Positions 10,130 to 64,000 of a DNA stretch of 64,000 nt are shown here, piece after piece. The stretch spans positions 44,268,001-44,332,000 of the forward strand of contig NC_083281.1 in assembly GCF_963506605.1 (NCBI RefSeq), read 5' to 3'. Within the stretch, counting starts at the first letter, position 1. Each line of letters opens with the position of its first letter. The notes under the pieces were generated by a model. That model was not told the DNA's origin. It did no database searches and saw nothing but the letters and a program-made list of their open reading frames with translations. Made by a program: the position numbers and the translations under genes. The stretch comes from Zootoca vivipara. Taxonomy: Eukaryota.

Positions 10130-10266
10130 TCTAGTTACAGGTAGGTAGCCGTGTTGGTCTGGCGTAGTCGAAACAAAATAAAAAATTCCTTCCAGTAGCA
10201 CCTTAGAGACCAACTAAGTTTGTCATTGGTATGAGCTTTCATGCGCATGCACACTTCTTCAGATAC
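10130..10266 (-). mobile_element. Penelope-like element terminal (pLTR) fragment
   Basis: Shared sequence CTAGTTACAGGTAGGTAGCCGTGTTGGTCTG...GCACCTTAGAGACCAACTAAGTTTG...CTTCTTCAGATAC, flanked by the duplication TTTTTCATAGA. Five copies in the window. Confidence 0.75.
10229..10266 (-). ncRNA. Minimal type-I hammerhead ribozyme motif
   Basis: Minus strand GUAU CUGAAGA A GUGUG CAUG CGCAU GAAA GC UC AUAC. Core intact, stem II held by G-U pairs. Confidence 0.7.
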
Positions 10267-17275: not shown

Positions 17276-17778
17276 CAGGGGCGGAGCAACAGGGGGCAGG
17301 GGGGCGGTACACCCCGGGCACCGCCCTGGAGGGGGTGTCTCTCGGAGCCACGCCCCCACCCCACGATCAACGCCTCCGAAGCTGCGCGCCTCACTCCAGC
17401 TACAAACTCCAGGTAAAACGCCCGCTCAGCACAGTGGGTGCGCTACACTGAGTGGGCTTTTTACTTGGAGTTTTGTAGCTGGAAGCATGTGGCTTTGGAG
17501 GCGGGGGGGCAGCAGCAATACCCTGCCACATAATGATGTACACGCTCAGCGCGGCGGGTGTGGGCTTTTTGCCTGGAGTTTGTAGCTGGAGCAAGGCGCG
17601 CGGCTTTGGAGGCGTGGGGCGGCGGCGATACACCACCATGTAACGGCGCATGCGTAGTTACGTAACACGCACACGTCATTACATAGCAACGCATGTGTCG
17701 TTACGTAGTGATGCTGCGCCCACCCGCGTGCATGGCAATTTGCCGCCCCGGATATCGCGGCGCCTCGCTACGCCCCTG
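17276..17778. mobile_element. CpG-rich hAT (Tip100-like) non-autonomous element
   Basis: TIR CAGGGGCGGAGC / GCTACGCCCCTG, TSD CCTAGAAC/CCTAGGAC (7/8) and internal inverted and direct repeats. Confidence 0.85.
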
Positions 17779-62777: not shown

Positions 62778-62878
62778 ATAACCATTCAACAATGGAAGAG
62801 ACAACCTCAGAAGGTGGTGGGCTCTCCTTTGCCGGAGGTTTTAAAGCAGAGGTTGGATGGCCACCTGGCAGGGATTCT

Positions 62879-63076
62879 AGTTACAGGTAGGTAGCCGTGT
62901 TGGTCTGACGTAGTCGAAACAAAATAAAAAAATTCCTTCCAGCAGCACCTTAGAGACCAATTAAGTTTGTCATTGGTATGAGCTTTAAGAATTGTGTATG
63001 CACACGAAAGCTCATACCAATGACACACTTAGTTGGTCTCTAAGGTGCTGCTGGAAGGAATTTTTTTATTTTGTTT
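62879..63076. mobile_element. Penelope-like insertion, inverted pair
   Basis: Two opposite pLTR pieces joined at GAGCTTT|AAGAATTGTG. Perfect 13-bp TSD TGGCAGGGATTCT (62866-62878, 63077-63089). Confidence 0.85.
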
Positions 63077-63129
63077 TGGCAGGGATTCTTTAGCTACGAT
63101 TCCTGGATAGTGCAGGGGTTGGACTAGAG

Positions 63130-64000
63130 CGGTGATGGCGAACCTATGACACGCGTGTCATCACTGACACGCACAGCCATTTTCACTGACATGCAGCGGG
63201 ATCAGGCCCGTCTTTAGGGCAAGCAGGGAGAGAAGCGGCCAGCCGGACCCAGCATGTCTGCGCTCCCTGCACGCCTCCGGAGAGCGGCCTGAAGCCGCTG
63301 AACAGCTGAGAGGTCAGGAGGACTTCTGGTTGAGGCGACATGGCAGACACCACGGCAGCAGGCAGCTCCTGAGGCCATCCAGAACCTACAGGGCTACCTG
63401 GCTGGTTCTGAGGCTGCTAGAACCGCCGCTACCGCCACTGCCACCGCCGCCAGCAACACCGACACCGGGTAGAGTCCGGGGGGGTGCCCGGAGCAAGCCG
63501 CAGCCCCCCCCAACTCGACTGGGCCGGATCCGGGAGCACCCGGCCACCTAGAATTCCGGGGCCGGGAAGGCCTCGGAGCCAGCGTAGAGGCAAGAGGGGA
63601 GGGGAGAGAGAGAAATCCCGGAAAACCCAGACCCCGTCGCTTCGCTCCCCCGCCTTCGCTGCCGCCAGCACTGCTGCTGGAGGGAGTGCGTCCGGCACGC
63701 TCACAGAGGGATCCGAAGCCCCCCTCCCCCAGCAAAGCAACAGAGCTCTCGAGGCCCCAGCCAGCACAAAAAAGGAACGGACTGAGACCCAGAGAGAGGC
63801 AGCGGGATGGAAGACTCCCCACAGGAGAAGAACACTGCCTGATATCATCCAAGGTCAGGAACTCTCTTTTTATTTTTATTTTATTTTTATTTTTCTATTT
63901 TTTCATTTTCATTTTTAATCTTTATTTTTATTTTTTATTATTTTTAGGCTCCCCCCACCCCCAGTATTTTTCATTTTTTCAGCTTGGAAAACAGAACAAA
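63130..64000 (+). mobile_element. OC1/Charlie-type hAT element, left end plus CpG-rich cargo (runs off the window)
   Basis: CGGTGATGGCGAACCTATGACACGCGTGTCA.CACTGACACGCA.AGCCATTTT matches the left end at 49287. Preceded by GACTAGAG. The right TIR is not in the window. Confidence 0.8.

What the first reader, a model, noticed from the sequence alone, without database searches (positions are those of the whole stretch)
63130..64000. Promoter-carrying hAT, copy 2: same ends, different but related cargo
Seen: the left end is nearly identical to 49287, but the cargo differs except for one alignable block. 63318 GAGGACTTCTGGTTGAGGCGACATGGCAGACACCACGGCAGCAGGCAGCTCCTGA aligns with 49421 GTGGACTTCCGGCGAGGCAAGATGGCGGTCGGCACAGAGCTGCGGAGCTCCTGA. 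It is again followed by ~500 bp of CpG-rich DNA, a donor-like AAG|GTCAGG (63854) and a T-rich tract. Inference: young shared ends with old, diverged cargo imply independent captures of paralogous promoters. L1 5'UTRs of two families are the most economical source. Recurrent capture would suggest selection or a targeting mechanism linking this hAT to open ETS/YY1 promoters.
Basis: partly seen in the sequence, partly recalled or inferred. Interest (0 to 1): 0.7.

Follow-up and report, generated by a model that had tools for sequence, protein, structure and literature searches.

The report
DNA transposons carrying stolen LINE-1 promoters
This lizard jumping DNA has the ends of a cut-and-paste transposon but is filled with the promoter region of an unrelated LINE-1 retrotransposon, and the same pick-up has likely happened several separate times in this genome, probably because open, CpG-rich DNA is copied into such elements more often than other DNA.

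Summary
Copy 2 is a complete 1.9-kb non-autonomous hAT-HT1-type transposon. It ends 1,043 bp past the window and has no ORF1/ORF2. Most of its interior is L1 5'UTR: full-length L1s of this genome start with the same GGACTTCCGG…ATGGCG block and share the downstream UTR. A sibling has a 17-bp A-rich repeat around this cargo, which copy 2 keeps in part, so it likely entered by L1 retro-insertion. Copies 1 and 2 took their 5' blocks from different L1 lineages (30% apart; AU p=0.014) but share a second L1-UTR block (8% apart), so copy 2 is a mosaic. L1 5'UTR DNA also sits in three other DNA-transposon shells, and a sibling carries a host CpG-island first exon. Against a promoter advantage: 62 of 70 cargo-blind hAT-HT1 copies lack L1 DNA; copy 2's ETS/YY1 motifs are damaged; three RNA runs show almost no reads inside it; the 'donor' is private to this copy. 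Verdict: a real Pack-type composite, a known kind in Anolis and plants, with a recurrent L1-5'UTR/CpG-island bias that I did not find in print or in earlier scan notes.

The parts
63122..63129 (+). Left 8-bp target-site duplication GACTAGAG, inside a LINE 3' tail (CR1-like, name recalled); the right copy, beyond the window, is partly deleted
63130..63203 (+). Left TIR (CGGTGATGGCGAACCT) and subterminal region of a hAT-HT1-type element (copy 2)
   Evidence: TIR CAGTGATGGSSAACCT in PMC3014272 Table 1; 92-93% to siblings L014/L015/L019
63204..63312 (+). About 110-bp insert private to copy 2; 63261-63322 is 94% identical to a piece of another repeat at L025
63313..63317 (+). GTCAG, likely the remnant of the 5' copy of the 17-bp L1-type TSD that is whole in siblings L017 and L019
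63320..63774 (+). L1 5'UTR, GC-rich first part (block A). It begins at the L1 first bases; in this copy the ETS-like CTTCCGG reads CTTCTGG and the YY1-like core reads GACATGGCAG
   Evidence: local score 71 vs shuffled max 37; 83 vs 68; PMC5381506 passages
63775..64000 (+). L1 5'UTR, middle T-rich part (block B). It runs on about 455 bp past the window to the 3' TSD remnant GCACGGTCAG (L001:2826-2835). Then come block C (no donor found), block D (L1-UTR-derived, shared with copy 1) and the hAT right end (to L001:3414)
   Evidence: B1 102 vs 45; B3 114 vs 68; D 78 vs 43; C 41 vs 50
63851..63859 (+). AAG|GTCAGG donor-like motif; not conserved in homologues, no spliced reads
49287..50277 (+). Copy 1: complete 991-bp hAT-HT1-type element with TSD CCTTAAGG, member of an amplified subfamily (40 of 40 scored hits at 83-100%, self included; 280 candidates)
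49423..50046 (+). Copy-1 cargo: L1 5'UTR of another lineage, from the L1 start to the first T-tract; 49908-50046 is block D, shared with copy 2

Best explanation
Copy 2 is a non-autonomous hAT-HT1-type DNA transposon whose interior is mostly L1 5'UTR, likely acquired when an L1 RNA was retro-inserted into an ancestral element and likely reshuffled afterwards by recombination with sister elements. Steps: (1) shown: hAT ends, distinct 8-bp TSDs in siblings, no coding capacity; mobilisation in trans by a hAT-HT1 transposase is inferred. (2) Shown: the cargo starts at the L1 first bases and is flanked in sibling L017 by a 17-bp A-rich direct repeat; inferred: this is an L1 TSD, and the insert was 3'-truncated (internal priming) or lost its ORFs later. 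(3) Shown: block D plus the right end is shared with the copy-1 family while the 5' blocks come from different L1 lineages; inferred: inter-element recombination or gap repair. (4) Shown: L1 5'UTR DNA sits in four transposon shells, and one sibling holds a host CpG-island first exon; inferred: repair of excision breaks, and L1 insertion, favour open unmethylated CpG-island DNA, as proposed for Pack-MULEs. The promoter is then a passenger, and nothing here shows that it works.
For: Ends and TSD. No ORF1/ORF2. Full-length L1s start with the block: 3 of 11 exact-motif hits are full L1s, RVT_1 plus endonuclease in ORF2; published lizard L1 5' consensus GACTTCCGGTGN8ATGGCG (PMC5381506 passages). 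Blocks A, B, D beat shuffles against L1 5'UTRs. 17-bp repeat: only 3 exact places genome-wide, all in two copy-2 siblings; 0 of 3000 shuffles give a second copy; L1 TSDs here are 11-18 bp and A-rich (20 of 23 loci scored). Tailless 5'-complete L1 inserts with TSDs are known (PMC5322556 passages). Two lineages: 100/100 branches, AU p=0.014. Other shells: 26 of 31 block hits lie in a TAGGGTTACCAG-type shell; 16 of 19 hits to a cargo-blind CAGTGGTTCCCAAC left-end pattern carry L1 5'UTR of two further lineages; 2 of 11 motif hits lie in a third shell. Background: 0 L1 5' ends and 1 L1 3' end in 509 kb of flanks. Host CpG island: L019 cargo has one parental locus on another contig, 83-87% identical, with no hAT ends.
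Against: No empty (pre-insertion) element and no full-length L1 of the copy-2 lineage were found. There is no poly(A) before the 3' repeat. The whole TSD pair is seen in 1 of the 5 copy-2-group elements. No TSD-like repeat over 11 bp flanks the copy-1 cargo (6 copies). Block C has no donor. No autonomous hAT-HT1 was found. Three of the four shells were first reached by motif-directed searches, and the 25-mer used for the cargo-blind test holds a CpG, which favours young copies. One element (duplicated as L204/L205) holds an L1 3' end too. The open-chromatin bias is inferred; methylation and accessibility were not measured. Only one host capture was traced to its parent.
Confidence: 0.7

Rival explanations
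1. Selection on the transposon: an L1 promoter/CpG island keeps the element open in the germ line, so carriers are cut and amplified more and go on to capture further promoters.
For: Several L1-UTR carriers amplified: copy-1 family; 16 of 19 young CAGTGGTTCCCAAC elements; 26 copies in the third shell. In L019, L075/L210, L076 and the L212 group, other CpG-rich DNA follows the L1 start directly.
Against: 62 of 70 cargo-blind hAT-HT1 copies belong to a ~700-bp subfamily without L1 DNA, 5 of 70 carry L1 UTR, 0 of 70 are copy-2 type. Two of those 5 have lost the ETS/YY1 block (L179 seen; L200 has the same length and no L1 hit). One capture lacks the first ~81 nt. CpG-rich cargo also occurs without an L1 start (L230). 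Almost no RNA reads inside copy 2, and no read-start peak in copy 1 (three runs, 6% of each, tissue unknown).
Confidence: 0.15
2. Pure chance nesting: L1s inserted at random into abundant MITEs, long nested copies lost their middle, and my motif searches picked out the few with 5' ends.
For: 972 exact right ends make a large target. SINEs and other repeats are nested in some copies. Fortuitous TE cargo is described for Anolis hobo elements (PMC3014272 passages).
Against: In the two cargo-blind samples L1 5'UTR appears as four lineages (copy-1 type, L199, two in the CAGTGGTTCCCAAC shell) against one L1 3' end, while flanks gave 0 5' ends and 1 3' end in 509 kb. Random L1 insertion should give mostly 5'-truncated pieces (established knowledge).
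Confidence: 0.1
3. L1 itself builds the junction: template jumps or 5' transduction join a DNA-transposon left end to an L1 5' end, and a nearby right end is recruited later.
For: 3 of 20 L1 insertions with a scored TSD carry 137-192 bp of extra 5' DNA inside the TSD; in L138 it is a CAGTGGTTCCCAAC left end (97% to L073), in L147 it ends in another MITE left end.
Against: The repeat around the copy-2-type cargo lies inside the hAT ends, not outside them. The L138 junction and L1 lineage differ from those of the amplified families. Single cases.
Confidence: 0.05

Closest known systems
hAT-HT1_AC / hAT-HT1N1_AC and composite non-autonomous hobo_AC families of Anolis (Novick et al. 2011, PMC3014272; passages and Table 1 seen)
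   Same: TIR CAGTGATGGSSAACCT, 8-bp TSD; shared ends with interiors changed by incorporated DNA and inter-element recombination
   Different: There the cargo is described as fortuitous genomic DNA with old TE pieces and mainly in hobo; the word 'UTR' does not occur in the main text. Here the cargo starts at the L1 first bases and recurs in four shells.
Pack-TIRs of animals (Tan et al. 2021, PMC8277862; passages seen)
   Same: TIR element with captured DNA from another chromosome, re-transposed with new TSDs; multicopy cases tend to be GC-rich; a frog hAT captured a gene 5'UTR
   Different: They found 4 multicopy cases in reference genomes and scored host sequence; 'lizard' and 'Anolis' do not occur in the main text. 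Here the main cargo is another transposon's promoter, and one acquisition looks RNA-mediated. Supplements not read.
Pack-MULEs of rice (PMC5861414; passages seen)
   Same: Preferential capture of GC-rich, low-methylation, open-chromatin sequence
   Different: Plant Mutator elements and host gene fragments; L1 promoters are not mentioned in the passages seen
Lizard clade-1 L1 5'UTR (PMC5381506; passages seen) and tailless L1 retro-inserts (PMC5322556; passages seen)
   Same: 5' consensus GACTTCCGGTGN8ATGGCG, first ~120 bp conserved across families; 5'-complete, 3'-truncated inserts with TSD
   Different: UTRs here are 1.9-2.6 kb with T-rich tracts, longer than the ~1.3 kb without low-complexity repeats reported for Anolis; the insert now moves as DNA

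Membership tests
non-autonomous hAT-HT1-type element | 16-bp TIR CAGTGATGGSSAACCT at both ends | tested here: met
   left 63130 with 1 mismatch; right end AGGTTGCCCATCACT lacks its last base
non-autonomous hAT-HT1-type element | 8-bp TSD, different at each insertion | tested here: met
   copy 2 GACTAGAG (right copy partly deleted); siblings L017 and L019 perfect, L015 imperfect; 12 of 13 copy-1-family loci match within 1 base
non-autonomous hAT-HT1-type element | autonomous partner with transposase in the genome | tested here: inconclusive
   a short stop-codon-ending remnant that looks like a transposase end sits in some siblings; 12 of 27 hits fetched, none autonomous
L1 5'UTR (cargo) | homology to the 5' terminus and UTR of ORF1/ORF2-bearing L1s | tested here: met
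L1 5'UTR (cargo) | near-identical full-length donor family | tested here: not met
   no full L1 among 31 block hits; copy-2 group is a separate branch from 11 full-length L1s
simple nested full-length L1 | ORF1, ORF2, 3'UTR and poly(A) downstream | tested here: not met
L1 retro-insertion (tailless or internally deleted) | A-rich 11-18-bp TSD abutting the L1 first bases | tested here: met
   whole pair in L017, 5' copy in L019, remnants in copy 2
Pack-TIR | captured DNA with a parental copy lacking TIRs, re-transposed | tested here: met
   L1 UTR cargo with distinct TSDs; L019 host cargo with one parent
functional promoter | transcription starting at the captured L1 start | tested here: inconclusive
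   almost no reads in copy 2's interior, no start peak in copy 1; 3 runs, 6% of each, tissue unknown
functional promoter | unmethylated, accessible chromatin in the germ line | not testable with these tools
   no methylation or accessibility data

The most novel reading that the evidence does not exclude
Lizard cut-and-paste transposons repeatedly hijack the L1 promoter as a cis-acting booster. The L1 CpG island keeps the element open in the germ line and among promoter hubs, where it then serially captures other L1 and host promoters and first exons, making a promoter-shuffling vehicle built from two transposon classes.
Probability: 0.2. Interest if true: 0.8.

Novelty: new variant of a known kind. 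Interest (0 to 1): 0.5.

Why it matters
Multicopy Pack-TIRs were thought rare in vertebrates (4 cases in PMC8277862). One lizard genome holds several amplified families that carry L1 promoter regions and at least one traced host CpG-island first exon. The L1 5' end is a marker with a known first base and lineage, so it lets one count independent captures and tell RNA-mediated insertion from DNA gap repair. That makes testable the open question of why captured DNA is GC-rich (template access or selection). The elements also preserve 5'UTRs of L1 lineages for which I found no full-length copy, and they scatter promoter-like DNA across the genome.

Tried and rejected
Pfam PF02994 search of the genome found nothing, nor did its controls, so it was uninformative; the genome's own ORF1 was used instead. 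The search for a full-length L1 donor of copy-2's block failed: of 31 hits, 5 were hAT-HT1 and 26 another shell. The search for an empty pre-insertion element failed. The search for an autonomous hAT-HT1 failed. No donor was found for block C or for the interior of the ~700-bp subfamily among the L1s held. No TSD was found around the copy-1 cargo. Splice-donor reading rejected. 'Native hAT promoter' reading rejected, because the same block begins full-length L1s and is absent from 62 of 70 family members. Sequencing-run search: no RNA holder listed. A DNA-contig joint 630>2567 may be another LINE tail and was not taken as an empty allele. L199 against the copy-1 clade: neither shown nor rejected (support 60/75). 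Literature searches without a report of L1 5'UTRs inside DNA transposons: (listings; passages read only for the five papers cited). Repbase/Dfam were not available, so a consensus entry may exist there. Earlier scan notes: nothing by sequence or by words.

Full report
OBSERVATION. The left end at 63130 and the block at 63318 are as described. The window is G000:C6:44268001-44332000. Reading on, the element ends 1,043 bp past the window in the same right end as copy 1. It sits in a LINE 3' tail (CR1-like, name recalled). The TSD is GACTAGAG; on the right, 5 bp were lost between two ACT repeats. Length is 1,914 bp. No ORF1 or ORF2 follows within the 10 kb read. The TIR matches hAT-HT1_AC in PMC3014272 Table 1. 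Two claims fail. The copies share a second block and the right end. The donor-like motif is private: 0 of 6 siblings and 0 of 4 L1s have it.

SOURCE OF THE CARGO. An exact ETS/YY1 pattern has 11 places in the genome and 0 for the reversed control. Three are the first bases of full-length L1s (400-aa ORF1; 1,307-aa ORF2 with RVT_1 and endonuclease). Further L1 families, fetched through an ORF1 search (112 scored of 1,318 candidates; 40 fetched), start with variants of the block. This agrees with the published lizard consensus (PMC5381506 passages). Against shuffles, copy-2 blocks A1, A2, B1, B3 and D all match L1 5'UTRs (71/37, 83/68, 102/45, 114/68, 78/43; score/shuffled maximum). Block C (41/50) and the interior of the main subfamily (41/46) do not. 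No part matches L1 ORFs or 3'UTR above chance.

HOW IT GOT IN. In sibling L017 a 17-mer beginning AAAAC lies just before the L1 first base and again 1,415 bp on, right after the UTR sequence, with one mismatch. The pattern has 3 exact places in the genome, all in L017 and L019, and 0 of 3,000 shuffles reproduce it. L1 TSDs here are 11-18 bp and A-rich (20 of 23 loci; 2 had no 3' end found and 1 was ambiguous). Copy 2 keeps GTCAG on the 5' side and GCACGGTCAG on the 3' side. I infer an L1 retro-insertion into a hAT element, either tailless through internal priming (known, PMC5322556 passages) or trimmed later. No poly(A), no empty allele and no full-length donor were found.

INDEPENDENT CAPTURES. 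On a tree of about 200 nt (34 rows; the two 66-nt pieces from the fourth shell were left out), the copy-1 group and the copy-2 group are each 100/100, and the copy-2 group joins the cargo of a different shell. One clade for copies 1 and 2 is rejected (AU p=0.014). Between the copies, the ends differ by 7-13%, block D by 8% and the L1 5' block by 30%. Within the copy-1 family, ends and cargo are alike in age (5.5% vs 7.1% non-CpG). So copy 2 holds two L1-UTR acquisitions joined by recombination (inferred). L199 has yet another L1 5' sequence, about 71% to its five comparators, at the copy-1 junction, which suggests replacement through the conserved block (placement unresolved).

RECURRENCE. Of 31 hits to copy 2's block, 5 are hAT-HT1 and 26 lie in a TAGGGTTACCAG-type shell ('Blackjack-like' is a recalled name). 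Of the 11 motif hits, 6 are in a CAGTG(G/T)TTCCCAAC-type shell and 2 in a Tc1/pogo-like shell (name recalled). A cargo-blind left-end pattern for the CAGTGGTTCCCAAC shell gave 19 places. 16 carry L1 5'UTR: 9 from one living L1 lineage starting at nt 1, and 7 from another starting near nt 82. Two of the 9, a duplicated element, also hold an L1 3' end. In 509 kb of flanks there were 0 L1 5' ends and 1 L1 3' end; the library held only young families of this clade. Sibling L019 continues from the L1 start into DNA with one parent on another contig: a CpG island (o/e 0.77) with a signal-peptide-like first exon and donor, 83-87% identical, with no hAT ends.

AGAINST A PROMOTER ADVANTAGE. The family has 972 exact right ends. 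Of the first 70 on contig C1, 62 belong to a ~700-bp subfamily without L1 DNA, 5 carry L1 UTR, 3 are short and empty, 0 are copy-2 type, and 0 hold L1 body. Copy 2's ETS- and YY1-like motifs are mutated. Three RNA runs (6% of each, one study, tissue unknown) gave almost no depth across copy 2's interior and no joints there. Copy-1-type interiors had low depth, mainly in one run, and no start peak; many reads on the L1 block came from the other shell and began upstream of it.

MECHANISM. Most likely (0.7): L1 5'UTR enters by retro-insertion or templated repair, is moved by a hAT transposase in trans, and is reshuffled between sisters. The bias would come from open CpG-island DNA being the preferred template, as proposed for Pack-MULEs (PMC5861414 passages) and noted for multicopy Pack-TIRs (PMC8277862 passages). 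Rivals: selection for an open promoter (0.15), chance nesting (0.1), L1-made junctions (0.05; 3 of 20 L1 insertions carry extra 5' DNA, two with MITE left ends).

NOVELTY. Composite non-autonomous hATs in lizards and Pack-TIRs are known. I found no report of recurrent L1 5'UTR cargo in nine literature searches. Repbase/Dfam and paper supplements were not seen. Earlier scan notes had nothing on this sequence; one note on a short L1 passenger element in this genome offers a possible intermediate that I did not test. Verdict: new variant of a known kind, interest 0.5.

Noticed in passing
L138 (G000:C13, ~51151500, - strand), L147, L141: Young L1s with intact ORFs whose TSD encloses 137-192 bp of extra 5' DNA; in L138 a hAT MITE left end, in L147 ending in a Tc1/mariner-like MITE left end (name recalled). 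3 of 20 scored L1 insertions.
   Followed up: partly
L201-L219: Young CAGTGGTTCCCAAC-type family; six ~1.5-kb copies are 98-99% identical and carry the L1 start followed by CpG-rich, exon-like DNA with a signal-peptide-like frame; parents not traced.
   Followed up: partly
L019 / L221 (G000:C4:9776290-9778054; parent C11:42013210-42014619): hAT-HT1 element carrying a host gene's CpG-island first exon and intron start; the parent has a SINE that the copy lacks.
   Followed up: yes
L029, L036, L037, L039, L041, L042, L047 and others: In the TAGGGTTACCAG-type shell the L1 start block occurs as a back-to-back inverted pair, like a bidirectional promoter.
   Followed up: no
L136:1600-2030 (- strand view), nested in L037: CATAGCTGCCAAG-type MITE whose interior repeats ACTTCCGG and AAAATGGCGG motifs; the CpG-rich inverted repeat at window 17370-17615 was not compared.
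   Followed up: no
G000:C2:4.80-5.07 Mb (L110-L115, L117): Cluster of 8 or more hAT-HT1 composites, some with a nested LINE piece, spaced 20-45 kb apart; looks like a tandem segmental duplication.
   Followed up: no
L225: Element end of hAT-HT1 type joined to sequence whose translation suggests the other hAT shell; possible cross-family chimera.
   Followed up: no
full-length L1s L072, L138-L157: Many near-identical intact L1 copies of several lineages with 1.9-2.6-kb T-rich 5'UTRs, longer than reported for Anolis.
   Followed up: partly
window 62878-63077: Palindromic multicopy MITE just upstream of copy 2, with further copies at 10130, 23872, 26556 and 33958.
   Followed up: no
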